DNA of 49,526 bases from a phage. The DNA lies in sequence record PZ296778.1, one strand, 5' to 3'. The position numbers and the translations under genes were made by a program. The notes under the pieces were generated by a model. The model had not been told where the DNA came from, did no database searches, and saw nothing but the letters and a program-made list of their open reading frames with translations. Shown one piece after another: positions 1 to 44,842 of the stretch (position 1 is its first letter; the number at the start of each line of letters is the position of its first letter).

Positions 1-528
1 ATGGCTAAAAACGTTGAGCCTGCTGTAAAGGCATTAAATTTCAAAGAGTTATATAATAAAACTTATGGCGATATTGTCACGCTAAACAACCGCCACAAGT
101 ACACGCCGGAACAGGTTTTTGATATGGCGATCCGCTATTTCACTTGGGCCGAAGAGAATCACATCCAGGCGGCTGAAACTGCTTCCTTTCAGGGTTACGT
201 GTACGAGAGCAGAGTTTACAAGCCTCGCGTTTTCACGGTTAACGGATTCAGCTTGTATCTCGGCGTGACTGAGGCTGCCGTAAGCAAATGGCGTAAAGAG
301 CCTGGATTCTGCGATGTGATGGAGTTTGTTGATAAAGTAATTTACGAGCAAAAATTCCAGCTTGCGGCAAATAACATGATTAATGCTGGATTTATCGGTA
401 AAGAGATCGGCGTAGAGAAGCCAGCAACAGTGAGCGTTGAAGCTAGCGCGGCAGCTAATGCAAGCATTGACGCAGTAACTGCCGATGAGGTGAAAGAGGC
501 TGTTATTGATATTCTGGAGCAACTTTAA
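1..528 (+). CDS. terminase small subunit (putative)
   Basis: 175-aa ORF immediately upstream of the large terminase with TAATG stop/start overlap; HTH-like segment (FSLYLGVTEAAVSKWRK); strong RBS contributed by the window end (aaggagga). Confidence 0.55.
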   Translation: MAKNVEPAVKALNFKELYNKTYGDIVTLNNRHKYTPEQVFDMAIRYFTWAEENHIQAAETASFQGYVYESRVYKPRVFTVNGFSLYLGVTEAAVSKWRKEPGFCDVMEFVDKVIYEQKFQLAANNMINAGFIGKEIGVEKPATVSVEASAAANASIDAVTADEVKEAVIDILEQL

Positions 529-2096
529 TGATCATATGGGAAGATTTGACGGCGGCGCAAAAGCGAGCCATTAAAGAAATCAGTGAGCATTCATTCGAAA
601 AGATGATCAGAATCTGGTTTCAGTTATTGCAGGGGCAAAAATTCCAGAGCAACTGGCATTTTAGCTTATTGTGCAGTGAGGTAGAGAAGATCATCAATGG
701 AGAGTCGCAGAATGTGATTTTCAACATTACGCCAGGTAGCGGTAAGACTGAGATTTTCTCGATCCACATGTCACCCTACGCGTCATTGAAAAGTCGGAAG
801 GTGAGAAACCTTAACCTTTCGTTTAGTGATGGACTTGTCCAGCAAAACAGCAACAGGATAAAGGAGATTATCGGTTCTCCTGAGTGGCAAGAGCTATGGC
901 CAGGAAAACTGGCAAAGGCGAGCGCAAAAGATCTCATAGTTACGGATGGCGGCAAGGTTAAATTGCAAGTTAACTCACGTTCTATTGGCGGACAGGTAAC
1001 AGGTTTGCGTGGCGGCTATATGGACGATGGTTTTACTGGTATGCTGGTTCTGGACGATCCAGACAAGCCGGATGATATGCTTTCTAAGGTCAAGCGTGAG
1101 GCGATCCACATGCGGTTAAAAAACACAGTGCGATCGCGTCGAATGAAAGACACTACGCCGATTGTTATGGTGCAACAGCGACTACACGTTAATGATTCCA
1201 CCTGGTTTATGCTTAATGGCGGGATGGGTGGTATTGAGTTTAAAGTTGTGAGTATTCCGGCGCTGGTTACGAAAGAATACCGCGAAACGCTTCCTGATTG
1301 GTTGAAGCCTGAATTTGATCGTGATGTGTTGTCAAGTAAGCCAGTGATGATAGATGGCGTTGCTCATTATTCATTTTGGCCTGCGAAGGAAAGCGCGGAG
1401 GAATTGCTTGCATTGCGCAATGCAGATCCTTATACGTTCGCCAGTCAGTACCAACAGCAACCCATCGCGCTTGGCGGCAACGTGTTTAAAACAGAGTGGT
1501 TCCAGTATTACGGCAGCGGCGAAAAATGCGCACTTCCTAAACCGGATCGCTTTGAATACACATTTATTACTGGTGATACCGCGCAGAAGGCCGGAGAGCT
1601 TAACGACTATTCAGTTTTTTGTTATTGGGGGATGTATAAGAATCGCGTTTACTTCATTGATGGCATTCGCGGAAAGTGGGAAGCGCCGGATCTTGAATTA
1701 AATTTTATTGCCTTCGTTAATCAGTGCTGGAAGCGCAATAAGGAGTGTGGCAGCTTGCGACGTATCCACATTGAGGATAAGGCCAGCGGCACGGGTTTGA
1801 TTCAGGGGGCCAAAAAGAAGATCCCGATTGATATAAATCCCGTTCAGCGAAGCAATGACAAGGTAACGCGAGCAATGGACGCCGCGCCAGTAATGAGGGC
1901 CGGACGTGTGGCACTGCCAGAAAGTCATCCCATGTTACCTGAGATACTGGCAGAGGTTGCAGCGTTCACTTTTGACGATTCTCATCCCCATGATGATATT
2001 GTCGATAATATAGTTGATGCTGTTAACGTCGAAATGAACTTGGCTGATGATCCGGTAGCAAGGATGAAAAAGCTGGCTGGTCTACGCAATAAATAG
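528..2096 (+). CDS. terminase large subunit
   Basis: 522 aa; Walker A-like PGSGKT and Walker B LVLDDPD in the N-terminal ATPase region; acidic C-terminal nuclease-like region; placed between small terminase and portal. Confidence 0.85.
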   Translation: MIIWEDLTAAQKRAIKEISEHSFEKMIRIWFQLLQGQKFQSNWHFSLLCSEVEKIINGESQNVIFNITPGSGKTEIFSIHMSPYASLKSRKVRNLNLSFSDGLVQQNSNRIKEIIGSPEWQELWPGKLAKASAKDLIVTDGGKVKLQVNSRSIGGQVTGLRGGYMDDGFTGMLVLDDPDKPDDMLSKVKREAIHMRLKNTVRSRRMKDTTPIVMVQQRLHVNDSTWFMLNGGMGGIEFKVVSIPALVTKEYRETLPDWLKPEFDRDVLSSKPVMIDGVAHYSFWPAKESAEELLALRNADPYTFASQYQQQPIALGGNVFKTEWFQYYGSGEKCALPKPDRFEYTFITGDTAQKAGELNDYSVFCYWGMYKNRVYFIDGIRGKWEAPDLELNFIAFVNQCWKRNKECGSLRRIHIEDKASGTGLIQGAKKKIPIDINPVQRSNDKVTRAMDAAPVMRAGRVALPESHPMLPEILAEVAAFTFDDSHPHDDIVDNIVDAVNVEMNLADDPVARMKKLAGLRNK

Positions 2097-2125
2097 CACT
2101 AATTGCTAAAAAGTTATATAATCAA

Positions 2126-2149
2126 GGCTGGATTTTTCCAGCCTTTTTT
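2126..2149 (+). terminator. intrinsic terminator after large terminase gene
   Basis: GGCTGGA-tttt-TCCAGCC hairpin followed by T6. Confidence 0.7.
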
Positions 2150-2166
2150 ATTATGGAGATTTGACG

Positions 2167-3459
2167 ATGAGCGAAAAAACAAGGCTAGTTAAGGCCGATG
2201 GATACAACGAGATTTTCAAGGGTAGTAAGGGCAATGGGCGTGTAGAGTTGCCTTTCTTTATGCAAGGGTTCGAATACACCACGCACGCTGATTTTTACAT
2301 TCGCGACGGCCTAGCAAAACGAATTATCGACGTTGTTCCAGAAGAAATGGTGACGCCTGGATTTAATATTGATGGCGTGGAAGATGAGGAGAGTTTTAGA
2401 TCTTTGTGGGATGAGAAGCGACTAAACGATAAAATCATTGATGCGCTTTGCTGGTCGCGTCTTTTTGGTGGCGCTGCAATCGTGGCAATCGTTCAGGATG
2501 GCAGGTCGTTAAAGTCACCTGTAGCGCCTGGTGCAATCCTTGAAGATGTTCGCGTTTACGATCGCTTTCAGGTTAGGGTAGAAAAGCGCGAAACTAATCC
2601 ACGCAAGGTAAGATATGGTGAGCCATTAATTTACACCATTTCACCTGGTGCCGACTTGCCAGAATACCAGGTTCACTATTCGCGAGTCTGTATTATCGAC
2701 GGTGAGCGGCTACCAAATCAGCGGCGTCAATCAAATGATGGGTGGGGTGAGTCGATCCTGAATAAGAGACTTGTTGAGGCTATTTGTGATTATAACTACT
2801 GCGAAAACTTAGCAACTCAATTGTTGCGACGTAAGCAACAGGCGGTATGGAAAGTTAAAGGTCTTGCTGATCTTTGTGATGATGATGATGGTGTTAGTGC
2901 CGCACGTTTGCGACTTGCTCAAGTTGATGATGAGGGTGGCGTAGGCCGTGCGATCGGCATTGATGCGGAAGATGAGGAATATGATGTTTTAAATTCTGAT
3001 ATTTCTGCCGTCGATTCGTTCTTGGAAAAGAAGATGGATCGCATTGTATCTCTTTCCGGCATCCATGAAATCATCCTCAAAAACAAGAACGTTGGCGGTG
3101 TTAGCGCGAGCCAAAACACGGCGCTTGAAACCTTCTACAAGCTGATCGACAGAAAGCGAAAGGAAGAATACAAACCAATCCTTGAATTTCTGATCCCGTT
3201 CCTTATTCAAGAGGAAGAATGGAGCATTCAGTTTGCGCCGTTAAGCGTTCCAAGCGAAAAGGACCAGGCCGAAATCTTGAACAAGAACATTGATTCTTTG
3301 AGTAAGGCTATTGACGGTCAATTCATGGATGCAGAAGAGGCGCGCGACACATTGCGAGCCATTGCGCCTAACGTTAAACTAAAAGACGGCAATGACATTA
3401 AATTACCTGAGCAAGACGTAGAGCCGGAGCCAGGAACAACAGAGGGTAGCAATCAATGA
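2167..3459 (+). CDS. portal protein
   Basis: About 430 aa, directly downstream of the large terminase; acidic C-terminus; start moved to the ATG after RBS ggag (track start 2161 is TTG). Confidence 0.7.
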   Translation: MSEKTRLVKADGYNEIFKGSKGNGRVELPFFMQGFEYTTHADFYIRDGLAKRIIDVVPEEMVTPGFNIDGVEDEESFRSLWDEKRLNDKIIDALCWSRLFGGAAIVAIVQDGRSLKSPVAPGAILEDVRVYDRFQVRVEKRETNPRKVRYGEPLIYTISPGADLPEYQVHYSRVCIIDGERLPNQRRQSNDGWGESILNKRLVEAICDYNYCENLATQLLRRKQQAVWKVKGLADLCDDDDGVSAARLRLAQVDDEGGVGRAIGIDAEDEEYDVLNSDISAVDSFLEKKMDRIVSLSGIHEIILKNKNVGGVSASQNTALETFYKLIDRKRKEEYKPILEFLIPFLIQEEEWSIQFAPLSVPSEKDQAEILNKNIDSLSKAIDGQFMDAEEARDTLRAIAPNVKLKDGNDIKLPEQDVEPEPGTTEGSNQ

Positions 3460-5865: not shown

Positions 5866-5889
5866 GGCGCTCGCTTGAGCGCCTTTTTT
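5866..5889 (+). terminator. intrinsic terminator
   Basis: GGCGCTC-gctt-GAGCGCC hairpin followed by T6. Confidence 0.75.
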
Positions 5890-6717: not shown

Positions 6718-6736
6718 GTTTAACAAAAAGTGCTAT
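6718..6736 (-). promoter_or_regulatory. conserved intergenic motif copy R1 (inverted, variant)
   Basis: GTTTAACAAAAAGTGCTAT upstream of major capsid gene; followed by hairpin plus T-run and RBS. Confidence 0.6.
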
Positions 6737-6742
6737 CATCTA

Positions 6743-10470: not shown

Positions 10471-10490
10471 CTTTTAACAAAAAGTGCTAT
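10471..10490 (-). promoter_or_regulatory. conserved intergenic motif copy R2 (inverted)
   Basis: CTTTTAACAAAAAGTGCTAT directly abutting the RBS of the G-like chaperone gene. Confidence 0.6.
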
Positions 10491-10504
10491 AAGGAGATCT
10501 TAAG

Positions 10505-14275: not shown

Positions 14276-15037
14276 ATGGCTAATAAAGAATCAGGTAGAG
14301 TTGAATTTGAGAACTGCCTACAAAGTTTGTACCCAGGCGAAATTATAACGCTTGTAGAGATTGACGGGACGAAGTTCGGAGCAAATATTTACCGATTTCA
14401 CAATGAGAACATCTCTTATACTGCCGAAGAATTAATGCAAGCGCAGCAAACCGGAATATTGCCGCCGAAAGATATTATTTTTCAGGGTGAGGTTTACGGA
14501 GCGCGGCCTTTCGGTGTGAGCGGTATTAACTTCACAAGTAACGGCAGGGCAGATAAGCCTCAGCTTATAGTGTCAAACCTTGACAGCAGGGTGAGCGCCA
14601 TGATCAGAAATTACAATGGCATGATGCAAGCAAAGGTGACTTTCTGGATAACGGCAAAGGAATTTATCGGAGAAGGCGGAGCAATCAAAGATGGCGCTTA
14701 CAGAAAATTGGTTTATTACATTGAGCGCCCAAGCCAGTACAATAGAGAGATAGCGAAATTTGATCTAACATCGCCTTACGATATGGATGGACTGATGATC
14801 CCGCCGCGCATCACTCAAAGCGTTTGCTATTGGGCGCAAAGGGGATGGTACAGGAGCGGAAAGGGTTGCTCTTATAACGGATCGGCAATGTTCGATAAAG
14901 ACAATAAGCCAGTAACAGATCCATCACAAGACTATTGCGCCGGAACTGTAACGGCTTGCAAATTGAGGTTCGGTCAGCAAAACGAATTGGATTTCGGCGG
15001 TTGCGCGGTTGCTTCACTGCTACGGAGGAATCAATAA
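14276..15037 (+). CDS. minor tail protein (lambda L-like)
   Basis: 253 aa; C-terminal cysteine cluster (CYWAQ...GCSYNG...CAG...AC) as in L-type Fe-S tail tip proteins. Confidence 0.6.
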   Translation: MANKESGRVEFENCLQSLYPGEIITLVEIDGTKFGANIYRFHNENISYTAEELMQAQQTGILPPKDIIFQGEVYGARPFGVSGINFTSNGRADKPQLIVSNLDSRVSAMIRNYNGMMQAKVTFWITAKEFIGEGGAIKDGAYRKLVYYIERPSQYNREIAKFDLTSPYDMDGLMIPPRITQSVCYWAQRGWYRSGKGCSYNGSAMFDKDNKPVTDPSQDYCAGTVTACKLRFGQQNELDFGGCAVASLLRRNQ

Positions 15038-15768
15038 TGATTAGTGCAAAAATTAAACTTGAAATAATGCAGCACGTTAAAGAGGAATACCCTAAAGAGG
15101 CTTGCGGCGTCATAACTCAAAAGTCACGGGTACAGAAATATCACCGCATAACCAACGTGCATGACGATCCAGAAAATCATTTTGAAATGGACGCCGTAGA
15201 ATACGCTGAATCGCTCGACAAAGGCGAATTAATCGCGGTGGTGCATTCCCATTGCGGGGATGGTGCTAGCACGATACCGAGCGCGCACGACTCATGTATG
15301 TGCGATGAAATGGGTGTGTCGTGGATTATAGTGTCATGGCCCGAAGGTGATATGAGAATTGTCGAGCCGCAGGAGAGGCCGCTTATCGGTCGCCCGTGGT
15401 CGCTGGGGTCGTTCGATTGCTGGGGTCTTATCATGGCATGGCATAAACAGCACGGAGTAGTATTGAATGACTTCCGAAAGCCTTACGAGTGGTGGAAGTC
15501 AGAATATGGTGAAAATCTTTACCAGGATAATTATTTGAAAGAGGGATTTGTTGAAACTAACGAGCCTCCAAAACCTGGTGATATGGTGATTATGCAGCTA
15601 TCATCGCCAGTCTGGAATCATGCGGGGATTTATTTGGGTAACAATCAGCTATTACATCATGCGTTTGGAAAGCTATCTCGCATTGACTTGTATTCTGGAT
15701 GGTATCAGGAGCACACTGTAAAAATTTGCCGACATAAGGATCTGAAATATGACATTGAAAGTAATTAA
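15037..15768 (+). CDS. tail assembly protein (lambda K-like, JAB/MPN plus NlpC/P60-like)
   Basis: Start at MISAK (TAATG overlap with L-like gene); metal-binding motif HSHCGDGAS; Cys/His pattern downstream. Confidence 0.6.
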   Translation: MISAKIKLEIMQHVKEEYPKEACGVITQKSRVQKYHRITNVHDDPENHFEMDAVEYAESLDKGELIAVVHSHCGDGASTIPSAHDSCMCDEMGVSWIIVSWPEGDMRIVEPQERPLIGRPWSLGSFDCWGLIMAWHKQHGVVLNDFRKPYEWWKSEYGENLYQDNYLKEGFVETNEPPKPGDMVIMQLSSPVWNHAGIYLGNNQLLHHAFGKLSRIDLYSGWYQEHTVKICRHKDLKYDIESN

Positions 15769-21267: not shown

Positions 21268-21636
21268 TTGTTATTTTTTGTTTTCCGGTGTTATCGAATT
21301 TAAGACGGCGTAAATTTAGCGCAAAATTTAGACAACATAAGATCAATAAACAATCAATAAAATAGATATATACATATAAAATCAATAGTTTATTTATTTA
21401 TGTATGTATATTTGTTTTTTCTTGTTATCTGCGTTTCTTGTGGTTTTGGTTGTTTGTGGTGATTTTTCTTTCTGAGTATCTGTATGTGCCATCATTCATG
21501 TGTATGTATATAATCCGGCGTATCTGAGAGAACATGGGAACAAGAAAAATAACACACATTAATCATTAACTTATGAGTCAAATCTGTTTTCTTGCCATCT
21601 GAGAACGTTTAGAAAACAGAAAAAACAAAACAGCTA

Positions 21637-21664
21637 TTGACTAAATCAACAAAATGGCTACAAT
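21637..21664 (+). promoter_or_regulatory. sigma70-type early promoter for the exonuclease/Erf/SSB module
   Basis: -35 TTGACT, 16-bp spacer, -10 TACAAT; A-tract (gaaaacagaaaaaacaaaa) immediately upstream; about 30 nt before the exonuclease RBS. Confidence 0.6.
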
Positions 21665-21694: not shown

Positions 21695-22750
21695 ATGAGT
21701 GATTTTAACGCCTACACTAGCGAAGAAATGAGCAACGAGCTTTATCATGATCCTAACGCGTGGACGGCTGAATATGTCAGCGGTTCCAGCCTAGCGGAGA
21801 TTTACAGCACTTGCCCGGCGTACTGGAAGTACAAGCCGCGCCAGGAAACTAAAGCACTTGTTTTCGGTACGCAGTCGCATACCAACTTTGAAAGCAAGGA
21901 GCTATTCGAAAAAACATATCGCCGCGCACCGTCGCAGGATGATTTTAAAGATCTGATCACTAGTCAAACGGCGTTAGCATCAAAGCTGAAATCTTTTGGC
22001 CTGAAAGGTACAACGGGCAAACAATACCCTGAATTACTGGAAATGCTGTACAAGTGCGGCGAGGATCTCAATGTGTGGTGGCTTATCGAAATGATGGCAG
22101 AATGCCAGGCCGCAGCGGACGGAGTGCAGTTAATAGACGCTAAAGATTATGATGCCTGTGTAGCGATGCGGCGCGTACTTGAGGCCATACCGGAGCATAA
22201 CGCTTGCATGAACAGCCCAACCGCGCAGCGTGAAATGTCAATATTTGGGATCATCAACGGCGTAAAAGTAAAAGTGCGTCTTGATCACGTTGACGTAAAC
22301 AAGGATGTAAAGGCAACAATCATTAACGGTTACGACGAAAAAGGCAGGCCGATTTATGAAGAAGTCACCTATCCAGAAGCGGTGATTATCACTGACTACA
22401 AAACAACGGTTAGCGCAAATCCGGTTGACTTCCAGCGCCTGGCTTACAATCACGGCTATTATCTTAAAATGGCTTTGCAACATGACTTATTCAAAAAGGC
22501 TTATCCAGACGAGGAAAGGCCAGTAATTGTAAGATTGCTTGCGCAGGAGAAGAAAGAGCCTTACTTGCCGCTTGCTTTCCGCATGAATATTGAGCAATTG
22601 AAGATCGGGCGCATCCAGTACATGAGCGTGATCAACAAGTTCAACGTTTGCCAGCAGTTAGACGAATGGCCTTCGTATGCAAACGGGCAACCGGAAATTG
22701 ATCTTGATACTCCTGATTGGGTTCGTGCTCAATTCAGGCATTATCTTTGA
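21695..22750 (+). CDS. exonuclease (PD-(D/E)XK, RecE/YqaJ-like)
   Basis: 351 aa; D...(I)ITDYKT catalytic-type motif; first gene after a strong early promoter; adjacent to Erf and SSB. Confidence 0.55.
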   Translation: MSDFNAYTSEEMSNELYHDPNAWTAEYVSGSSLAEIYSTCPAYWKYKPRQETKALVFGTQSHTNFESKELFEKTYRRAPSQDDFKDLITSQTALASKLKSFGLKGTTGKQYPELLEMLYKCGEDLNVWWLIEMMAECQAAADGVQLIDAKDYDACVAMRRVLEAIPEHNACMNSPTAQREMSIFGIINGVKVKVRLDHVDVNKDVKATIINGYDEKGRPIYEEVTYPEAVIITDYKTTVSANPVDFQRLAYNHGYYLKMALQHDLFKKAYPDEERPVIVRLLAQEKKEPYLPLAFRMNIEQLKIGRIQYMSVINKFNVCQQLDEWPSYANGQPEIDLDTPDWVRAQFRHYL

Positions 22751-27358: not shown

Positions 27359-28288
27359 TTATAGCAGTGATTCGGGCTTGTAGAGTTTTCTTTCTACTCC
27401 CTGTTTAAAATTATCGTTAACAGGCATCATTATGTCAAGCCCTCTTTCCTCTGCCGCGATTATCACATCACGATCATCTTTCCGGCAGACTACGCGCATT
27501 CTTCTTTCTCCTTTATATCTATGCGCAACCATTTCAAGATTTGAAGGAGTAAAACAGGCCCACACCTCTTGACCAGTTGATAAATGAACATGCTGAGAAT
27601 CAACCCAATCAAGGCACAAATAGATCGTCTTATCTGTACTACCTGTTTTAACAACAGATCCGCGCGTGTAGTCGCGAGCTAAAAACCAATCCTTTCCATC
27701 CTCATCAATGAAAAGCACGTTACACATTTCATCATCCAGCCCGTCATCATGCACCAGGTGACAAGGTAGCGCGTGAATGTATCGACCATCCTTGACGCCG
27801 CAATCATAATGACAATCTTCCGGCGGATATATCCCCTCATAAACGCTTAAAGGTGTGCGATCGAATTTTAATGTTTTTGCCATCACTTTTTCGCAACATT
27901 CATGACTTGCCTGTTTCCCGAACGAGTAACCAGAAGAACGCGAAGCGCGTTTGTTTGCTCTGATCCTGTAATCTTGTGGCACTTTTCCGAGGAAGCGGCC
28001 CAAAATGTTTATGGCCTCGCTGTAAGGTTCGCCAGTTAATTTCATTAACCAACCGATCCCCGTGTCGTTGCCGCACACGTTGCAGATCGCGCCGCCGTCG
28101 CCCTCTTCATTTAGCTTATCAGTCCATCTAAAACGATCCTTACCGCCGCAGTGTGGGCAAGGTTGATGCTTTTTGTTGAAAACATCGCTATGCAGCCCGC
28201 AAATGCTTTGTAGTGCTTCACGCCATAACCCCTTCATATATGGCAAAACATCTTCTTTCTGATAGGTCATAAAGTTTTCAGTATTCAT
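27359..28288 (-). CDS. DNA primase (zinc-ribbon type, putative)
   Basis: Zinc-binding CPHCGG...CNVCG; start moved to MNTENF after RBS gagg; intrinsic terminator separates it from the upstream HTH gene; co-located with the helicase. Confidence 0.5.
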   Translation of the reverse strand: MNTENFMTYQKEDVLPYMKGLWREALQSICGLHSDVFNKKHQPCPHCGGKDRFRWTDKLNEEGDGGAICNVCGNDTGIGWLMKLTGEPYSEAINILGRFLGKVPQDYRIRANKRASRSSGYSFGKQASHECCEKVMAKTLKFDRTPLSVYEGIYPPEDCHYDCGVKDGRYIHALPCHLVHDDGLDDEMCNVLFIDEDGKDWFLARDYTRGSVVKTGSTDKTIYLCLDWVDSQHVHLSTGQEVWACFTPSNLEMVAHRYKGERRMRVVCRKDDRDVIIAAEERGLDIMMPVNDNFKQGVERKLYKPESLL

Positions 28289-28343: not shown

Positions 28344-28820
28344 TTAGCTATTCGTGCTGTTATCACCTTTGTAGAATCTTCCGCCTGGTTCGTAGTCTGA
28401 ATTTTTGACTACGCGCAACATTTCGTATTTGTCGCAACGGGTAGTAAGAGGCTTGCCGTTAGAATCAAACCGCAGATCTGGACGACAAAACGAGGCGCGG
28501 TATCCTTTGCATCCATTATATTTGTAGTCGTTATGCACCTTTTGTGCTCCAGCGGCTGAAATCATACCACGCTTTCGCCATTGGTTAACGACTTGCTGAG
28601 ATACGCGCAGACGTCGAGCCATAGCAGGAACGCCGCCGTAATACTCGATCAGAATGTCAAGGCGAGATTTCAGGCTTGCTTTTACCTCATCTCGCAGGAT
28701 AAGAAATCCGGTTCGGTGTTTTCGTGGTTTTTTGTCTTTACCTCGTCGCGTTCCGTTGTTACCGTTAATAGTGCGCTTGTCGATCTCACCCGTAGATACT
28801 GCAATTCGTGCATCTTTCAT
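28344..28820 (-). CDS. HTH DNA-binding protein (putative regulator)
   Basis: 158 aa; Xre-like helix-turn-helix (ARRLRVSQQVVNQWRKRG); RBS gaggtg; transcribed divergently from the helicase. Confidence 0.45.
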   Translation of the reverse strand: MKDARIAVSTGEIDKRTINGNNGTRRGKDKKPRKHRTGFLILRDEVKASLKSRLDILIEYYGGVPAMARRLRVSQQVVNQWRKRGMISAAGAQKVHNDYKYNGCKGYRASFCRPDLRFDSNGKPLTTRCDKYEMLRVVKNSDYEPGGRFYKGDNSTNS

Positions 28821-28831
28821 CTAGTCACCTC

Positions 28832-28851
28832 ATAGCATTTTTTGTTAAAAC
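28832..28851 (+). promoter_or_regulatory. conserved intergenic motif copy F2 (variant)
   Basis: ATAGCATTTTTTGTTAAAAC in the divergent region upstream of the helicase gene. Confidence 0.55.
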
Positions 28852-28907
28852 AGTTTATTGTAATGAGTATATTATATACTCCAAATGGCATTTTTTAAAG
28901 GTTTAAG

Positions 28908-30905
28908 ATGATTCCAAATATCGAAAAACAAATATCAGCATTAGGCGAGGCAGTAATAAAAAGCATCCAAGAGCGATTCACGGTTGGCAATATAGTGCCT
29001 TATCCTTATCAGTGCGTTGCGTATGCAGAGATCGCAAAGCGCATGAAAAACTATGAGCATCCTTTCTTTGTTAAGGCTTCTGTATCGGCTGGCAAAACAT
29101 TGATGTTTGCGATGGTTGCGGCGCAATGCCGCAAAATGGGATTGAAAATGATGGTCCTTGCTCGCCAGGCTGAAATTGTTGATCAGGATTCGGAGGAGAT
29201 CAGCAATCTTGGCGTGCCAAACTCAATCTATTGCGCCGGACTGAAAACAAAAAGCGCATACTTTCCGATCGTAGTCGGTTCTGAGGGCACTGTAGTAAAC
29301 GGATTGTTTAAGTCGTTAGGTGATTATGTTCCGCACGTTATCGGTATTGATGAATGTCACCAGGTGGATTGGGAGGATCTCGCGGACGCGATAGAAAATA
29401 ATGAATCTTACCAGCAGATGACCACTAAGAAGGATTTGCCTGTACTGATTGGAGAAGAACAGCAATTTGATTCCAATGGCGATCCAATGTTCGGAACAGG
29501 GCGCACACAGTACACCGTAATAATCATGGAAATGATGCGTAGGTGTCGCGAGGCATACGGGCACGAATTGCGAATATTCGGCATGACTGGATCTGAGTTT
29601 CGCGGCGTGGTTCCAATACTGGTTGAAGATAAGAACAAAAAGGGATTCTGGCGTGAGCAGGTGACTAACATAGACACAAACTACTTAATCAAATTCGGTT
29701 CGGTAGTGCCAACAAACTTCGGCGACGTAGGCGACCTGGGTTATGACCTTTCAGAGTTCGAAGCCAGTAGCGAGGATGGCGTTTCAGACTTTGACGCTAA
29801 AACATTGCGCAAGATGGAAGAAAAGATCCATCAAGACGCAACAATGACACAGAAAATCATGGCTAAAGTCCATGAGATATGCAAAGACAGGAACGGAGTT
29901 TTAGTTACATGCGCAGGGGAAAGGCACTGCAAGGAGGCCGCCGCCGCACTGCCGCCAGGCGTTGAATACAGGATCATAACTGGCAAGACTGGAGATAATC
30001 AGCGTAAAGAGTGGCTGAGGGAGGCATACGAGGGAAAAGTAAAATACATCTTCCAGGTACAGGCGCTTACCACTGGCGTTAACGTTCCGTTTTGGGATAC
30101 TTCGGTAATACTGAGAAAGATAGGATCTCTAACATTGCTTATCCAGCTTTTGGGGCGCGGCATGCGACTGCTTAAGCAATGGCACATTGAACAGGGATTC
30201 AAGAAAAAAGATCATCTTGTATTGGATTTTGCAGGTACTATGGATGAGTTAGGTGATTTGTATTTCGATCCAATCCTTGAGCAAGCGCAATTCCAAAAGA
30301 GATTTACAAACGGGAAAGAGCCTAAGACTTGTCCGATATGTGGAACGCTAAACAGCTTTTACGCTCGCCGATGTATGCACGTAGACGATAACGGGAAGCG
30401 ATGTGAGCATTTTTGGACTTACAGAATTTGCGAGGACCAGGTAGATCCGAGAACGAAAAAGATAATCAAGCGCGGTTGTGGAACAAAAAACGACGTAGTG
30501 GCGAGAGTATGCCGTTGTTGCGATATTTCTCTTGTCGATCCTAACGAGAAGTTAAGCGGTAAGCACTACACCAAAAACGATTGGTGCAACGTTAAATCTT
30601 TCCGCGTTGATATGACGAAAAACCAGAAAGGAATTATTTTTTGCTATGAGCTTGAGGCCAACGGCGACACGTTCAAGGCATACGAAAGATTTTTCCCTGA
30701 GTCAGAAAGCAACATTTGCCGGACGATATGGAGAAAAATAGCATTGCAGCACATACCGGATCGCAAGATTGCTGGTATGGTGGCGAGCTATAGAAATGCT
30801 CGTAAAATAATGTCATACGCTCATCACATCATGCCGCCTGTACGCGTAACGCATCGCAAAAACGGCAAAGGTGAGGATAACATTGCAAAACGGGAGTTTG
30901 TTTAA
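28908..30905 (+). CDS. superfamily 2 DNA helicase
   Basis: 665 aa; motif I SAGKT, motif II DECH, motif VI QLLGRGMR; C-terminal Cys-rich zinc-ribbon-like region. Confidence 0.8.
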   Translation: MIPNIEKQISALGEAVIKSIQERFTVGNIVPYPYQCVAYAEIAKRMKNYEHPFFVKASVSAGKTLMFAMVAAQCRKMGLKMMVLARQAEIVDQDSEEISNLGVPNSIYCAGLKTKSAYFPIVVGSEGTVVNGLFKSLGDYVPHVIGIDECHQVDWEDLADAIENNESYQQMTTKKDLPVLIGEEQQFDSNGDPMFGTGRTQYTVIIMEMMRRCREAYGHELRIFGMTGSEFRGVVPILVEDKNKKGFWREQVTNIDTNYLIKFGSVVPTNFGDVGDLGYDLSEFEASSEDGVSDFDAKTLRKMEEKIHQDATMTQKIMAKVHEICKDRNGVLVTCAGERHCKEAAAALPPGVEYRIITGKTGDNQRKEWLREAYEGKVKYIFQVQALTTGVNVPFWDTSVILRKIGSLTLLIQLLGRGMRLLKQWHIEQGFKKKDHLVLDFAGTMDELGDLYFDPILEQAQFQKRFTNGKEPKTCPICGTLNSFYARRCMHVDDNGKRCEHFWTYRICEDQVDPRTKKIIKRGCGTKNDVVARVCRCCDISLVDPNEKLSGKHYTKNDWCNVKSFRVDMTKNQKGIIFCYELEANGDTFKAYERFFPESESNICRTIWRKIALQHIPDRKIAGMVASYRNARKIMSYAHHIMPPVRVTHRKNGKGEDNIAKREFV

Positions 30906-36166: not shown

Positions 36167-37854
36167 CCCAGCAGTATTGGATTGACAAAAATAACACCAT
36201 TAATCACACAAACATAATTTCTTTCTTCCAGCATTGGCAGTAAGTGCCCTTCTATCCTTTTCATTACGCCAGCCTGACCAACGAAAGGTTTTACCTTTCT
36301 CGCTGATTCGTACAGGGCGCGGATATTCAGAATCCCTTTATTAGCCTTGCCGTGCCTCGTGATCAATTCAATCAATTTACCCATTTCAGCATCATCACCA
36401 GCATAACCAGAAGCATTGGCGGCGCTAATGTATGTTTTGCTCAATTCCTGAAACATGATCAACGCCTCTTGCATTGTTTCCACGTCGATCTCTTTCGACT
36501 TCTGCGGGTATCCGGCAGGATTAAACCAGTTACGGATAACATGCAGGACGGAAGCAAGCCTGATCACCTGTTTATCCATTTTACCCAGCGCACCGCGTAA
36601 CATTGTATGAGAATACTTTCCTCCGTCTGCAAGATGCGGTTCCATATCCTGGCGAGCAATGTTGAGCACTCGCATAGCTGAACGGCTTATTTTCAGCGAT
36701 ATATTTGATTCGCTCATGATGTTATGCACCAATTGATAATATTGGGCTTTCAATTCAGAATCCACCGCCTCATAGGTAGAATCACCATTTTCATCAATGA
36801 ATGAGCGACGGCCTAAGAATGATTCCTCGCGGACCAACAAAAAACGCTCACTAACACCGATGCCTCGCGATCCAGCGTCCATGATTCCGCTTATCGTTTC
36901 ATCCTGGGCTATAACGCTCATACATCCAAGCGCGCGAAAACTCATATTATTGTCAGCATTAGCGCGGGCAATTGATACGTGACCATTATCCCACGCCTTA
37001 AGCACTAACTCACTGTTAGTCTTCCTTTCGCTATTTGCATAGGTCAAGCCTAACAGACTGTTAATACTTGTTGCTTCATCAGATATTACGGCAAAGTTAC
37101 CTTGCTTGTTGTTGATTTTCGCCAAGCCTTCTGGAGTTGTATCTGAGACAGGAAAAGTTATATCACACATTTTTTCCAGTTTTTCCTCCAGATCCTCTTT
37201 TTCCTGGTATAGAGATTCCATATCAGCGCCGGATCTTTCGCTTTTCATCTCCTTTGCAAGACCTGCCAGCTTTGCCTGTATTTTCTTTCTTTCCTTGCGG
37301 CGTTGCTCGTTGATCTTCTCAACTTCCGCAATCATCGGAGCAATAGCCATGCTGTTGATCGCAGATTTACCAGTTGACGGCGGCTGGCTTGTAACGACGT
37401 AAAGCGCAGTCGGCTGATCGGTTCCGTGATAGTCAACCGTAAAGCGTCCAAGCATAGCGGCAGAAATGCAGCCGATAAAGTGCATGTAAGCCGATGATTC
37501 AGGGAATTGAACGGATCGCGCAATGCTGCGTGATAACTTGCCGACAACATCAATATCATTACCAAGAGAAATAACGGGGTAGCGATCGTGACCGCTATTC
37601 ACATCCGATTCAGGGAATTGAACGGATCGCGCAATGCTGCGTGATAACTTGCCGACAACATCAATATCATTACCAAGAGAAATAACGGGGTAGCGATCGT
37701 GACCGCTATTCACATCCTTTACGTCGCCCCAAAAGCTGGACGACTGGCGATAGCCGTTAGCCTGAATTGATACGCGAACTGGCGAAAGGTTCTGGCTTTC
37801 AGCCATAGCGATTATTTGTTGTGGAGTTAATTTGTTCGTTTCTAATGAAAACAT
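36163..37854 (-). CDS. P-loop NTPase of unknown function (DUF3987-like?)
   Basis: 563 aa; Walker A-like PSTGKS and Walker B-like FAVISDEAT; N-terminus carries a perfect 37-aa tandem duplication; RBS aaggag. Confidence 0.5.
   Translation of the reverse strand: MFSLETNKLTPQQIIAMAESQNLSPVRVSIQANGYRQSSSFWGDVKDVNSGHDRYPVISLGNDIDVVGKLSRSIARSVQFPESDVNSGHDRYPVISLGNDIDVVGKLSRSIARSVQFPESSAYMHFIGCISAAMLGRFTVDYHGTDQPTALYVVTSQPPSTGKSAINSMAIAPMIAEVEKINEQRRKERKKIQAKLAGLAKEMKSERSGADMESLYQEKEDLEEKLEKMCDITFPVSDTTPEGLAKINNKQGNFAVISDEATSINSLLGLTYANSERKTNSELVLKAWDNGHVSIARANADNNMSFRALGCMSVIAQDETISGIMDAGSRGIGVSERFLLVREESFLGRRSFIDENGDSTYEAVDSELKAQYYQLVHNIMSESNISLKISRSAMRVLNIARQDMEPHLADGGKYSHTMLRGALGKMDKQVIRLASVLHVIRNWFNPAGYPQKSKEIDVETMQEALIMFQELSKTYISAANASGYAGDDAEMGKLIELITRHGKANKGILNIRALYESARKVKPFVGQAGVMKRIEGHLLPMLEERNYVCVINGVIFVNPILLG
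37496..37717 (-). repeat. perfect 111-bp in-frame tandem duplication inside the P-loop gene
   Basis: Two identical adjacent 111-bp units (37496-37606 and 37607-37717) encoding a duplicated 37-aa segment. Confidence 0.85.
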
Positions 37855-40032: not shown

Positions 40033-40245
40033 TCATTTCTTATTTTTCATCTTAAATTTATGGCCTAGAACACCAGCACCAATATAGCCATCGTTGTATT
40101 CCATTAAATAAAGGTGAAGGCCATTATCTGAAATTACATGAGGATCTTCTTTGAGATTTCCCATTAGCGGGTATTCTTTTCCGCGCGTAAATCTCCAAGT
40201 TGAGTCATAAGTTTCTACGCATTTAAGTTTTAATTGCTTTGCCAT
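40033..40245 (-). CDS. hypothetical protein
   Basis: 70-aa ORF; overlapping start/stop with the upstream gene. Confidence 0.4.
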   Translation of the reverse strand: MAKQLKLKCVETYDSTWRFTRGKEYPLMGNLKEDPHVISDNGLHLYLMEYNDGYIGAGVLGHKFKMKNKK

Positions 40246-40442
40246 TAGATGATCTCCATGTATGTTTCAAAGCCATTTAACTTGAACAGGCCGTTTTCAC
40301 ATTTGCGAACGTTCCAAGTTAGCCCTGAGTGGTACGCCTCCATATCATCAAGGTCAATGGTGATTTCAGCACCTTTCTTAAACAAACCTTTTTCGTGAGA
40401 CTTGTCGCGCTTAACAACTTTAACATCAACCTGATTTTCCAT
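40245..40442 (-). CDS. hypothetical protein (first gene of leftward early operon)
   Basis: Start moved to MENQVDV after RBS gagga; the track start at 40565 would read through motif copy R7 and its hairpin. Confidence 0.4.
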   Translation of the reverse strand: MENQVDVKVVKRDKSHEKGLFKKGAEITIDLDDMEAYHSGLTWNVRKCENGLFKLNGFETYMEII

Positions 40443-40496
40443 CTTTAAATCCTCGTTTGTTGTCGATGCGCTTACTATACCAATCAGCAGCGCATC

Positions 40497-40517
40497 GTTT
40501 TTAACAAAAAGTGCTAT
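40497..40517 (-). promoter_or_regulatory. conserved intergenic motif copy R7
   Basis: GTTTTTAACAAAAAGTGCTAT at the head of the leftward early operon; followed on the minus strand by hairpin GATGCGCT...AGCGCATC, RBS and ATG. Confidence 0.6.
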
Positions 40518-40565
40518 TTGACGGTTAGCACCAGGATTGTGATCGAAATAATCAAAAGTAATCAT

Positions 40566-41131
40566 TCGTAATCAAATCGCGTCAAAATGATGATTGCCTT
40601 TGCAAATTTGATGAGAAAAGCAATCACGTTTAATCATTGGTTGCAGGGGAGATAGTGAAACCTTCCCCTCTTGCCTCACTTTTCCGCCTGGCTGTCAGCG
40701 GTTGTTGTCTTTTGTTCACCCCTGTTACCGATTTCAGGCGGCGTGTTTCCGCGCGGTTTTCCGGTGTATCGAAAACGGAAAAAACAAAAAAAATCCTTTA
40801 TAATACATTGAAAATAAAGATTATTTATTTATATATATCTATAATGTTTTCTTTTTGTTCTCACTGTTACAGTGCTTTTTGTTGGGTGTGGTGTTGTTGT
40901 GTGTTGGTATATATGGATAGTTGCGCGCGCGGCGGATTGCATATGTATATATACTTTTTCCGGCGGATTGCGTTAACAGCGTGAACAGAAAAATAACAGC
41001 CCTGAAATCAATAACTTGCGCATGATTTTGTAGTTTTTCGATATTGGTAACGTTTTGAATACAACAAAAACATTGACACGCACCAAATAGCTTTTATAAT
41101 GCGCCAACAGTCAACAACTGGAGGAAAGGAA
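40566..41131. promoter_or_regulatory. AT-rich non-coding control region between divergent early operons
   Basis: About 565 bp; A-tracts shared with 21200-21694, direct repeat CGGCGGATTGC twice, GT-rich tract, consensus promoter at 41073; the track ORF 40637-40984 is judged spurious. Confidence 0.5.
41073..41100 (+). promoter_or_regulatory. consensus sigma70 early promoter for the rightward early gene array
   Basis: -35 TTGACA, 16-bp spacer, -10 TATAAT; A-rich upstream tract; about 30 nt before RBS ggagga and ATG at 41132. Confidence 0.65.
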
Positions 41132-41596
41132 ATGGAACAGAAGACCACTAAGGACTATTGCGATTGGCTTCGCGAACTTGGTCGCCGCCTGGCTAGTGGC
41201 GATATTGAAGAGTATAAAATGTCACTAATTGACCTGGCCGGAATGTTAAGCGGTGACGACTGCTACAAGATCACGCGCAGTTCATCCTACAGCCGGACCA
41301 TTATCAACCGCGTTCCAGAAGTAAGGGCCGCAGGTCGGGTAAGCATCAAGGTAGAGGAAACGGAAGATGATAAATTTTACGTTTTCCGCATGGTCCGCGA
41401 ATCGAAAAGGAAAATCATCACACCCGAAGAATTGCCAGCCATCAAGGCAAGGGCGATCAAAAAGTTTGCCGATCGCATACTGGCAGCAATCCCGAATATC
41501 GTTGACCTGGAAGGGGATAAACTGGCTGGGGCTTGCGAGGGCGTAAGCCGCTACCAGGATATGATCCGCGAAATCATCAAAGAGGAAGAGCAATGA
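41132..41596 (+). CDS. hypothetical protein (first rightward early gene)
   Basis: Start at MEQKTT after RBS ggagga, about 30 nt downstream of a consensus sigma70 promoter. Confidence 0.5.
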   Translation: MEQKTTKDYCDWLRELGRRLASGDIEEYKMSLIDLAGMLSGDDCYKITRSSSYSRTIINRVPEVRAAGRVSIKVEETEDDKFYVFRMVRESKRKIITPEELPAIKARAIKKFADRILAAIPNIVDLEGDKLAGACEGVSRYQDMIREIIKEEEQ

Positions 41597-44787: not shown

Positions 44788-44842
44788 AGATCATCGGGCT
44801 TGCTGTATAGTAAGCCCATCAACAACAAACGAGGATTAAATC

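What the first reader, a model, noticed from the sequence alone, without database searches (positions are those of the whole stretch)
40566..41131. 565-bp divergent control region with a perfect-consensus sigma70 promoter and shared upstream elements
The region lies between the leftward and rightward early operons. It holds TTGACA-16-TATAAT about 30 nt upstream of the corrected start of the first rightward gene, a CGGCGGATTGC direct repeat, a GT-rich tract and A-tracts resembling those at 21523-21634. The long track ORF at 40637-40984 is low-complexity and almost certainly not coding. This looks like the main immediate-early promoter hub.
Basis: seen in the sequence. Interest (0 to 1): 0.5.

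Follow-up and report, generated by a model that had tools for sequence, protein, structure and literature searches.

The report
T1-like phage promoter, pac and origin-like locus

Summary
TTGACA-16-TATAAT at 41073-41100 is the only 12/12 sigma-70 match in the window. It is conserved in relatives and corresponds to the predicted promoter P01 of phage TLS. The 115-aa ORF is not coding.

Three corrections:
- **Left boundary.** The leftward gene is a 65-aa Gp54 homologue starting at 40442, so the gap is 40443-41131.
- **Leftward promoter.** It is not sigma-70-like. It is a copy of the T1-family 21-nt repeat (40499-40519) followed 22 nt later by a -10 hexamer.
- **More than promoters.**
  - By position, 40580-40690 corresponds to the mapped packaging ends of T1, TLS, MSK and SU57. 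It holds the genome's densest cluster of 10-bp-phased AATCA repeats.
  - Positions 40779-41072 are a collinear paralogue of 21345-21627 (z about 23).

In this phage, T1, TLS and Rtp, the AT-rich cores of these two modules are the two least stable 60- and 100-bp duplex stretches of the genome. They are flanked by lineage-specific short repeats, a G/T-only tract and an IHF-like site.

My reading is a composite locus: early promoter (likely), pac (moderately likely), candidate replication origin (about 0.35, inferred only). The promoter claim is ordinary; the paired modules are a new, testable lead.

The parts
40248..40442 (-). First leftward gene, a 65-aa Gp54-family protein. Its true start, ATG at 40442 with RBS GAGGA, sets the left edge of the non-coding gap.
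   Evidence: Pfam PF25180, positions 1-65 of 65, E = 1.7e-38; sequence.
40464..40519 (-). Leftward promoter of the T1-family direct-repeat (DR) class. The DR AAATAGCACTTTTTGTTAAAA lies at 40519-40499. After 22 nt comes the -10 hexamer TATAGT (40479-40474), preceded by TGg. The -10 sits in the loop of the hairpin 40464-40472 / 40489-40497. The predicted start is near 40467.
   Evidence: (I18). The DR motif is described for TLS in PMC11447400. Homology with 43 relatives begins exactly at 40499.
40532..40690 (.). Probable pac (packaging initiation) region. AATCA occurs at 40550, 40560, 40570, 40622 and 40632 in 10-bp register, with TGATT at 40591. By position this corresponds to the mapped left genome ends of T1, TLS, MSK and SU57.
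   Evidence: 6 sites in 130 bp, the genome-wide maximum (mean 0.67).. The XY3 record starts at the equivalent of window 40655.
40700..40768 (+). Left repeat block: TGTTG, TGTTCAC (40713-40719) and TGTTAC (40723-40728), then TTTCCGCGCGG and TTTTCCGG. The TGTTC-type repeats are in the opposite orientation to the GAACA repeats at 40972-40999.
   Evidence: (D1, D6, D8).
40770..40875 (+). AT-rich core. An A-rich arm (40774-40802) and a T-rich arm (40840-40868) form an imperfect 29-nt inverted repeat around TATAATACATTGAAAATAAAGATTATTTATTTATATATAT. This is the most conserved block of the gap. Positions 40786-40845 are one of the two least stable 60-bp duplex stretches of the genome. A conserved -10-like TATAAT box lies at 40799-40804, with no -35.
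   Evidence: I1; z = 4.7.
40876..40908 (+). G/T-only tract of 33 nt, the longest in the genome.
40909..40971 (+). Second TATATA block, including the palindrome GTATATATAC at 40945-40954, bracketed by the CGGCGGATTGC direct repeat (40930-40940 and 40961-40971, 31 bp apart). Only the second CCGGCG is conserved across the family.
40972..40999 (+). Three direct repeats 9 and 11 bp apart: GTTAACAG, GTGAACAG and TAACAG. They are conserved as GTGAACA..GAACA..AACA in both modules across Tempevirinae.
41006..41018 (+). IHF-like site AATCAATAACTTG, an exact match to WATCAANNNNTTR, centred about 95 nt upstream of the predicted start. The same position in 12 other A and B modules has 0-1 mismatch.
   Evidence: with the consensus taken from my own knowledge. 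Binding was not tested.
41047..41072 (+). A-rich block resembling an UP element, GTAACGTTTTGAATACAACAAAAACA, directly upstream of the -35. It is conserved in both modules.
41073..41100 (+). Rightward sigma-70 promoter TTGACA-16-TATAAT, with a predicted start near 41107. It drives the DUF7174 gene (41132-41596) and downstream small genes.
   Evidence: The TLS orthologue is P01.
21345..21664 (+). Paralogous module A, with the same order of blocks: AT core 21353-21412, G/T tract 21438-21461, GAACA repeats, an IHF-like site and an A-rich block. It ends in promoter TTGACT-16-TACAAT (21637-21664) ahead of the exonuclease gene at 21695.

Best explanation
The gap 40443-41131 is a composite cis-acting locus of a T1-like (Drexlerviridae, Warwickvirus-type) phage. 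I read four parts from left to right.

1. A leftward promoter of the family's direct-repeat class (DR 40499-40519, -10 at 40474-40479). It transcribes the Gp54-type gene and the small genes behind it.
2. The packaging initiation (pac) region, at about 40580-40690. Here terminase would make the first cut and package rightward. Phased AATCA repeats are the likely small-terminase binding sites.
3. A module of about 300 bp (40700-41072) that also exists at 21345-21627. It is built around the most easily melted DNA of the genome. Short repeats flank it in opposed orientation, and it carries a G/T-only strand, an IHF-like site and an A-rich block.
4. A consensus sigma-70 promoter (41073-41100). Unmodified host RNA polymerase should use it as soon as the DNA enters, making the DUF7174 protein and its neighbours.

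I think the module most likely has two roles. Its promoter-proximal part (A-rich block, IHF-like bend) boosts the early promoter. Its AT core with flanking repeats is a DNA-unwinding element at which replication starts, so the phage would have two paralogous origins, each coupled to an early promoter.

Shown: the sequence features, their conservation, the paralogy, and the duplex-stability ranking.
Inferred: promoter use and timing, the position of pac in this particular phage, IHF binding, and all of the origin function.
For: Promoter:
- It is the only 12/12 match in the window.
- It is conserved in Warwickvirus relatives, W011D and TLS.
- Its TLS orthologue, P01, is one of three sigma-70-type promoters predicted in TLS.

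Leftward DR promoter:
- The 18-nt core occurs 15 times in the window, against 0.14 expected.
- In four genomes, 69 of 87 DR matches carry a -10-like hexamer 22 +/- 1 nt downstream, against a 6-7% background.
- The Gp54 Pfam match fixes the gene start at 40442.

pac:
- TLS record position 1 is the restriction-mapped pac end. HindIII at 5876 and EcoRV at 2733 agree with the paper.
- The T1 record annotates the terminal repeat as 1..2800, starting 538 nt before the first rightward gene.
- PhageTerm puts the MSK forward terminus at 36,862. That is 145 nt right of its DR and about 120 nt left of its AT core.
- The SU57 end maps to the same place.
- The AATCA cluster is the genome-wide maximum and is phased at 10 bp.

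Module:
- The A/B alignment has z of about 23.
- A/B paralogy is also present in T1 (z 17), TLS (z 15) and Rtp (z 52). For T1 and Rtp it exceeds every A-to-A similarity to the other genomes.
- The two AT cores are the two least stable 60- and 100-bp stretches in all four genomes, z 4.3-5.9 against 3.8 or less for the next stretch.
- The two longest G/T runs are in the two modules.
- Module-enriched short repeats differ by lineage. In Rtp all 6 genome copies of TCCGCGG are in the modules. In TLS 4 of 8 copies of GTGAACA are. GTATATA is enriched in all four genomes.
- The core-to-promoter distance varies from about 60 to 250 bp, and in Rtp the shared 123 nt exclude the promoter.
- The origin of T1-like phages is unmapped, and the TLS authors found no iterons.
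- The phage encodes its own primase and helicases.
Against: - There are no transcript, terminus or replication data for this phage or a close relative. Everything about function is inference.
- The pac position is transferred by position from other genera. The sequence there aligns poorly between genera, and the estimates spread over about 110 bp.
- The modules are not next to the primase or helicase genes, unlike many phage origins.
- No initiator protein has been identified.
- The short repeats are degenerate. TGTTCAC itself is not enriched genome-wide (4 found, 5.9 expected).
- An AT-rich upstream region with an IHF site can activate a promoter without any role in replication.
- Both modules sit directly upstream of strong promoters in every genome examined, which a purely transcriptional role would also explain.
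Confidence: 0.6

Rival explanations
1. Transcription only. The whole module is an upstream activating region for a strong early promoter. The easily melted AT core takes up superhelical stress. IHF bound about 95 nt upstream, together with the A-rich block, passes that destabilisation and the polymerase alpha-subunit contacts on to the promoter, as described for ilvPG, lambda pL and Mu Pe. The second copy does the same for the recombination operon. No replication role.
For: - Both modules end in a conserved sigma-70 promoter in every genome examined.
- The IHF-like site and A-rich block keep a fixed relation to the -35 within Tempevirinae.
- The AT cores are the least stable DNA in the genome.
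- Unit 40766-40804 is an internal repeat of 41052-41100 that lacks the -35 (D2 and D5). This suggests the module grew by duplication of a promoter.
Against: - The core-to-promoter distance is not conserved across subfamilies (about 60 to 250 bp).
- In Rtp the near-identical A/B segment excludes the promoters.
- Between subfamilies the promoters stay conserved while the core repeats change together within a genome. This pattern fits sites read by a phage-specific protein.
- 300 bp of conserved upstream DNA is far more than known UP, IHF or Fis arrangements need.
Confidence: 0.3
2. The AT core is itself transcribed. The conserved TATAAT box (40799-40804) would be a weak or activator-dependent promoter whose G/U-rich transcript acts as a small RNA, or forms an R-loop that primes replication, as at phage T4 oriF/oriG or ColE1.
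For: - A TATAAT-like hexamer sits at the left edge of the AT core in at least seven of eight modules from four genomes.
- The non-template strand downstream is G/T-only for 33 nt. From my own knowledge, this favours stable RNA-DNA hybrids.
Against: - There is no -35, no TG extension and no DR upstream of the box.
- TATAAT arises easily in TATATA-rich DNA.
- The predicted + strand RNA has no excess structure (z = -0.2).
- The small hairpin at 40862-40874 is not conserved.
- There is no Rfam match.
Confidence: 0.1
3. The region encodes a protein: the 115-aa ORF at 40637-40984, or a short hydrophobic peptide in the T-rich tract.
For: An uninterrupted 115-codon ORF exists in the window and in FritzSarasin. 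Some GenBank records annotate hypothetical proteins here.
Against: - The frame is broken by indels of 1, 2, 4, 8 and 19 nt in relatives that keep the DNA blocks.
- The longest ORFs in tiwna, PeterMerian, WaterSpirit, W011D, TLS and T1 are in different frames or on the other strand.
- The start is TTG with no ribosome-binding site, and the product is low-complexity.
Confidence: 0.02

Closest known systems
Phage TLS promoter P01 and the left-end untranslated region of T1, TLS and Rtp (PMC11447400; GenBank AY308796, NC_005833, NC_007603)
   Same: Same position: between the last leftward and first rightward small genes. Same order of parts: DR element, GATT/AATC-rich stretch, AT-rich core, sigma-70 promoter. 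The first gene is homologous with TLS gp01 (compare). The promoter was predicted in silico for TLS at 523..549.
   Different: The published descriptions list the promoter and the DRs. In the passages of the TLS paper that I searched, I found no mention of the paralogous module or its duplex instability. That paper states that no iteron-like repeats were found. Here the promoter is a perfect consensus with a 16-nt spacer.
Phage SPP1 oriL / oriR (two distant origins with the same initiator boxes next to an AT-rich stretch; my own knowledge, mentioned in PMC5737612)
   Same: Two paralogous non-coding or cis-acting copies per genome, tens of kilobases apart. Each has short repeats beside an AT-rich unwinding region, in a lytic pac-type siphophage that borrows the host polymerase.
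   Different: In SPP1 the initiator (G38P) and its binding are shown experimentally, and oriL lies inside the initiator gene. Here no initiator is known, the modules are not near the replication genes, and nothing has been tested.
Satellite phage P4 ori and crr (type 1 iteron TGTTCACC bound by the alpha primase-helicase)
   Same: Two separated cis regions carry the same octamer in direct and inverted copies. P4 ori has GGTGAACAG three times at 10-11-bp spacing. The window has GTTAACAG, GTGAACAG and TAACAG at 9-11-bp spacing, and TGTTCAC on the other side of the core. The phage primase is homologous to the N-terminal primase domain of P4 alpha (E = 5e-14).
   Different: The overall alignment of P4 ori or crr with any module is not significant (z of 2.8 or less). 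No window ORF resembles the alpha helicase or its DNA-binding domain. The T1 and Rtp lineages use different repeats. This is a resemblance of motif and layout, not membership.
IHF-dependent upstream activation of sigma-70 promoters (ilvPG UAS1, lambda pL, Mu Pe; my own knowledge)
   Same: An IHF consensus lies 80-95 nt upstream of the start. Upstream of it is AT-rich, supercoil-destabilised DNA, and beside the -35 is an A-rich element.
   Different: Here the AT core lies about 200 bp beyond the IHF-like site, and the whole unit is duplicated and co-evolving. IHF binding was not tested.
Phage T4 PeSL cassettes (early promoter plus stem-loop between small early genes; my own knowledge)
   Same: The DR promoters are repeated between nearly every small early gene, carry a hairpin, and coincide with mosaic boundaries. 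Homology with 43 relatives starts exactly at the DR, position 40499.
   Different: The sequences are unrelated. The DR replaces the -35 and lies 22 nt from the -10, and the -10 sits inside the hairpin loop.

Membership tests
Sigma-70 (housekeeping) promoter | -35 and -10 hexamers close to TTGACA / TATAAT, with a 16-18 nt spacer | tested here: met
   12/12 match with a 16-nt spacer at 41073-41100. It is unique in the window; 0.05 expected.
Sigma-70 (housekeeping) promoter | Placed upstream of a gene, with a leader and ribosome-binding site, and conserved in relatives | tested here: met
   It ends 31 nt before the ATG at 41132, with GGAGGA at 41120-41125. It is conserved in six Warwickvirus-type phages and TLS.
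Sigma-70 (housekeeping) promoter | Transcripts start there, early and without phage proteins | not testable with these tools
   I found no transcript data for T1-like phages in the library.
T1-family 21-nt direct repeat (aaATAGCACnnnTTGnTAAAA, PMC11447400) | Sequence match, intergenic, oriented with transcription, about 76 nt before the start codon | tested here: met
   AAATAGCACTTTTTGTTAAAA on the - strand at 40519-40499, 78 nt from its 5' end to the ATG at 40442.
T1-family 21-nt direct repeat as a promoter | A -10 element at a fixed distance | tested here: met
   69 of 87 repeats in four genomes have a hexamer with A2, T6 and at least 4/6 matches, 22 +/- 1 nt after TTGnTA. Background is 6-7%. 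Here it is TATAGT with a TG extension.
pac site of T1-like headful packaging | Position homologous to experimentally mapped first-cut ends | tested here: met
   The TLS, T1, MSK and SU57 ends all fall between the leftward DR and the AT core of their region B.
pac site of T1-like headful packaging | Recognisable conserved pac sequence | tested here: inconclusive
   GATT/AATC-rich repeats are present in all, but this stretch does not align between genera. The TLS authors picked 'AGATTT' by analogy with P22.
pac site of T1-like headful packaging | Virion DNA ends or a submolar pac fragment in this phage | not testable with these tools
   No reads or virion DNA are available.
Iteron-plus-unwinding-element replication origin | AT-rich region of exceptionally low duplex stability | tested here: met
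   40786-40845 and 21353-21412 are the two least stable 60-bp stretches (z 4.7 each). The same holds in T1, TLS and Rtp.
Iteron-plus-unwinding-element replication origin | Arrays of a repeated short binding motif flanking the AT region | tested here: inconclusive
   TGTTC-type repeats lie to the left and GAACA-type repeats to the right, conserved across Tempevirinae. Lineage-specific module-restricted repeats occur in Rtp and TLS. However, the motifs are short and degenerate, and TGTTCAC is not enriched genome-wide.
Iteron-plus-unwinding-element replication origin | A cognate initiator protein that binds the repeats; origin often in or beside its gene | tested here: not met
   No homologue of the P4 alpha DNA-binding domain was found. 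The modules lie 7-12 kb from the primase and helicase genes. The HTH protein (28347-28820) is only a candidate.
Iteron-plus-unwinding-element replication origin | Replication initiates there | not testable with these tools
   I found no replication mapping for any T1-like phage.
P4 ori / crr | Clusters of the octamer TGTTCACC, and sequence similarity to ori or crr | tested here: not met
   There is one TGTTCACC (40713-40720) and one inverted TGTTCAC. Alignment to P4 ori or crr gives z of 2.8 or less.
Structured non-coding RNA | Rfam match or excess folding energy on the transcribed strand | tested here: not met
   No Rfam hit at gathering score, and only chance-level hits at E of 1 or less. 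No tRNA. The + strand fold has z = -0.2. The - strand z of -3.3 reflects the DNA-level inverted repeat around the AT core.
Protein-coding gene (ORF 40637-40984) | Reading frame conserved in relatives | tested here: not met
   Frame-breaking indels are present, and relatives have different longest ORFs.

The most novel reading that the evidence does not exclude
Drexlerviridae carry two paralogous, co-evolving replication origins: 'oriB' beside pac at about 40.8 kb and 'oriA' ahead of the recombination genes at about 21.4 kb. Each would be the genome's most meltable DNA, flanked by opposed arrays of a lineage-specific repeat read by a phage protein not yet identified, and each would be coupled to one of the few host-type early promoters. 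This would be the first origin assignment for T1, the one classical T-phage whose origin was never mapped.
Probability: 0.35. Interest if true: 0.65.

Novelty: new member of a known kind. Interest (0 to 1): 0.45.

Why it matters
T1-like phages are common laboratory and fermentation contaminants, generalized transducers, and members of widely used reference collections. The TLS reannotation of 2024 states that no origin-like repeats were found and that the function of the 21-nt repeats is unknown.

This analysis gives three concrete coordinates to test in one small locus: an early promoter, a packaging start, and a candidate origin with a twin elsewhere in the genome. If the modules are origins, they explain why this gap is conserved while the genes around it are shuffled. 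They would also give handles for engineering, such as minimal replicons, packaging signals and strong early promoters. If they are only promoter enhancers, they are an unusually long and elaborate example. The promoter itself is ordinary.

Tried and rejected
- **Structured RNA.** Rfam on the whole window at gathering score, and on 40300-41300 at E of 1 or less, gave nothing meaningful. There are no tRNA or tmRNA genes. RNA folding of the + strand module showed no excess structure. The - strand signal comes from the DNA inverted repeat.
- **Coding.** Rejected for the 115-aa ORF.
- **Homology with P4 ori or crr.** Alignment is not significant in either orientation for all eight modules. A search of all window ORFs with P4 alpha found only the primase domain. 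The motif resemblance is kept as a lead only.
- **Module on plasmids or in E. coli chromosomes** (as a possible borrowed origin). No match.
- **Literature.** Searches for transcript maps, origin mapping or pac sequences of T1-like phages gave only in-silico promoter lists, the TLS restriction mapping and two PhageTerm reports. The Rtp genome paper is not held. A search for the P4 octamer returned only primer noise.
- **First rightward gene as a search handle.** It found only two IMG/VR loci, so region B was compared using GenBank records instead.
- **A-tract phasing as evidence of curvature.** The A runs at 40772-40793 are about 8 bp apart, not in helical phase. I did not pursue curvature.
- **GC skew as an origin indicator.** It follows gene orientation, and gene orientation is confounded with position relative to both modules, so it is not informative.
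Full report
**What the window is.** The region around the finding is 98-99% identical to Escherichia phages EC195, tonn, swan01 and FritzSarasin (Bas04). These are Drexlerviridae, subfamily Tempevirinae, genus Warwickvirus, that is, T1-like siphophages. The window starts at the small terminase gene. Gene orientation switches at three divergent junctions, near 21.2-21.7 kb, 28.8-28.9 kb and 40.4-41.1 kb. The finding is the third.

**Checking the observation.**
- TTGACA-16-TATAAT at 41073-41100 is a 12/12 match. It is the only one in the window, and shuffles give 0.05 on average.
- It ends 31 nt before the ATG at 41132, with GGAGGA at 41120-41125.
- CGGCGGATTGC is present twice, 31 bp apart. That is not beyond chance on its own, and only the second copy is conserved in relatives.
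- The G/T tract at 40876-40908 is the longest G/T-only run in the genome. The second longest is at 21438-21461.
- The 115-aa ORF is open only in near-identical relatives and is broken by indels of 1, 2, 4, 8 and 19 nt elsewhere.
- The left boundary is wrong. The 106-aa ORF ending at 40565 is an over-extension. The 65-aa product starting at ATG 40442 matches Pfam PF25180 ('phage antiviral trigger protein Gp54') end to end, E = 1.7e-38. The gap is therefore 40443-41131.

**The leftward promoter.**
- Just inside the corrected gap lies AAATAGCACTTTTTGTTAAAA, on the - strand at 40519-40499. Its 18-nt core occurs 15 times in the window against 0.14 expected.
- It is the 21-nt direct repeat reported for TLS, T1, Rtp and Rogue1. 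Its function was left open; stoperator, enhancer and UP-like element were the suggestions.
- Aligning the copies shows a fixed layout on the sense strand: repeat, 22 nt that usually form a hairpin, a -10-like hexamer, then 20-30 nt, a ribosome-binding site and ATG.
- Across this phage, T1, TLS and Rtp, 69 of 87 repeats have a hexamer with A2, T6 and at least 4/6 matches at 22 +/- 1 nt. The background is 6-7%.
- The repeat therefore occupies roughly -57 to -31 and replaces a -35 element. Whether host polymerase alone uses it is unknown.
- Here the -10 is TATAGT (40479-40474) with a TG extension, in the loop of the hairpin 40464-40472 / 40489-40497.
- There is no sigma-70-type leftward promoter in the gap.
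- Homology with 43 relatives begins exactly at 40499 and the gene to the left differs. The repeat is therefore also a mosaic joint.

**The packaging end.**
- The reference records of T1, TLS and Rtp all begin inside the homologous gap, 538, 588 and 545 nt before their first rightward gene.
- For TLS this is experimental. The paper maps a submolar pac-HindIII fragment of about 5,882 bp and an EcoRV fragment of about 2.7 kb. The record has HindIII at 5876 and EcoRV at 2733.
- The T1 record annotates 1..2800 as the terminal repeat.
- Two sequencing-based determinations in Rtp-like phages agree. PhageTerm places the forward terminus of MSK at 36,862. That is 145 nt right of its leftward repeat and about 120 nt left of its AT core.
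- The SU57 end was chosen from PhageTerm plus a coverage step. It maps about 107 nt right of Rtp position 1.
- Transferred by position, the cut in this phage should lie at about 40,580-40,690.
- This stretch holds AATCA at 40550, 40560, 40570, 40622 and 40632, in 10-bp register, plus one inverted copy. That is the densest such cluster in the genome.
- The stretch does not align well between genera, so the transfer rests on position, not sequence.

**The paralogous module.**
- Positions 40779-41072 align collinearly with 21345-21627: score 88 against 22.8 +/- 2.8 for dinucleotide shuffles.
- The same within-genome paralogy exists in T1 (z 17), TLS (z 15) and Rtp (z 52, 123 nt nearly identical). 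For T1 and Rtp it exceeds every A-to-A similarity to the other genomes. The two copies therefore change together.
- Thirteen A and B modules from Tempevirinae share one block order (42 distinct region-A loci):
  1. TGTTC-type repeats.
  2. A CCGGCG / TTTCCGCG block.
  3. An A-rich arm.
  4. A TATAAT box.
  5. TTATTTATTTATATATAT.
  6. A T-rich arm with TTGTT repeats.
  7. A G/T tract.
  8. A second TATATA block.
  9. CCGGCG(T/C)AAAT.
  10. GTGAACA..GAACA..AACA.
  11. An IHF-like WATCAANNNNTTR site (41006-41018 here, an exact match).
  12. An A-rich block.
  13. The -35 and -10 hexamers.
- With nearest-neighbour energies, the two AT cores are the two least stable 60- and 100-bp stretches in all four genomes, z 4.3-5.9 against 3.8 or less for the next stretch.
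- An unbiased k-mer comparison finds GTATATA/TGTATAT enriched in the modules of all four genomes, plus lineage-specific repeats. In Rtp all six TCCGCGG of the genome are in the modules. In TLS four of eight GTGAACA are.
- The distance from the core to the promoter ranges from about 60 to 250 bp, and the Rtp A/B identity stops short of the promoters.

**What the module could be.**
- *Origin reading.* An unwinding element flanked by opposed repeat arrays, an IHF-like site, a neighbouring strong promoter, two copies per genome and co-evolution of the copies together make the layout of an iteron-type replication origin. SPP1 oriL/oriR and P4 ori/crr are the closest analogues. The phage has its own primase and helicases but no mapped origin.
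- *The P4 lead.* The phage primase is homologous to the primase domain of P4 alpha. The P4 iteron TGTTCACC, present as GGTGAACAG three times in ori, resembles GTGAACAG here. But the alignments are not significant, and no homologue of the alpha DNA-binding domain exists in the window. I do not file the module under P4.
- *Transcription-only reading.* An upstream activating region would explain the fixed promoter-proximal blocks and the instability. It fits the variable core distance and the co-evolving repeats less well.
- *Transcribed-core reading.* This has little support: no -35, no RNA structure, no Rfam hit.
- None of these readings can be settled from sequence.

**Comparison with what is known.** The rightward promoter is the orthologue of TLS P01. 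The TLS authors predict only three sigma-70-type promoters: P01, P51 ahead of the exonuclease gene, and P57 ahead of the HTH regulator gene. The window has the same three. The promoter and the 21-nt repeats are therefore already described for the family. In the literature I could read, I found no description of the paired modules, their duplex instability, the fixed 22-nt relation of the repeat to a -10 hexamer, or the phased AATCA cluster at the packaging end.

**Verdict.** The interpretation as a promoter region is partly right but too narrow. The locus most likely combines a leftward repeat-class promoter, the packaging start, and a rightward consensus early promoter. The conserved module upstream of that promoter is a credible but unproven candidate for one of two replication origins.

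Confidence by part:

| Part | Confidence |
|---|---|
| Rightward promoter | about 0.8 |
| Leftward repeat-class promoter | about 0.7 |
| pac in this gap | about 0.6 |
| Origin function | about 0.35 |

Noticed in passing
window-wide, e.g. 31321, 32392, 41862, 42325, 43317, 44767, 46087, 47402 (+); 40517, 38600, 37926, 35653, 21267 (-): The T1-family 21-nt repeat is the upstream half of a promoter class. A -10-like hexamer follows TTGnTA at 22 +/- 1 nt in 69 of 87 copies in four genomes. The -10 usually sits in the loop or 3' arm of a hairpin. The repeat replaces a -35, which suggests a phage factor or an unusual polymerase contact.
   Followed up: partly
window 6722-6739 and 10476-10493 (repeat sense on the - strand): Two repeat copies point antisense to the late structural genes, just upstream of the major capsid gene (6783) and of the gene at about 10505. 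The same antisense copies exist in TLS (DR7, 15044..15024) and T1 (15086-, 18850-), so the arrangement is conserved. Their -10 hexamers are weaker.
   Followed up: no
window 40245-40565 (-): The 106-aa ORF is an over-extension. The real gene is a 65-aa homologue of Gp54 (Pfam PF25180, 'phage antiviral trigger protein'), starting at 40442.
   Followed up: yes
window 28820-28908: The third divergent junction lies between the HTH regulator gene and the helicase gene. It holds a sigma-70-like promoter for the regulator (TTTAAA-17-TATAAT, 28899-28871; orthologue of TLS P57) and a repeat-class promoter pointing at the helicase (28832+, -10 TATTAT). It is the third least stable 60-bp stretch of the genome.
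   Followed up: partly
window 40448-40480 and 44805-44837: A 33-nt stretch covering hairpin, -10 and leader is 94% identical between two repeat-class promoters on opposite strands. The promoter-leader cassettes appear to be exchanged as units.
   Followed up: no
window 40766-40804 versus 41052-41100: There is an internal repeat within the gap. The A-rich block plus TATAAT box upstream of the AT core looks like a copy of the main promoter lacking the 12 nt that carry the -35 (repeat families D2 and D5, spacing 286 and 296). This suggests the module grew by tandem duplication of a promoter unit.
   Followed up: partly
L008 (Rtp) 27990-28230 and 100-500; L006 (T1) regions A and B: The repeats flanking the AT core differ by lineage: TCCGCGGAAA and TTACGC in Rtp, GTGTAACAG / GATTAACAC in T1, GTGAACA in TLS and this phage. 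They are shared by the two modules of each genome.
   Followed up: partly
window 41132-41596: The first gene served by the consensus promoter encodes a DUF7174 protein (Pfam PF23796, E = 4e-51) of unknown function. It is followed by a small lipoprotein-like ORF. As the likely first product of infection, it is a candidate regulator.
   Followed up: no
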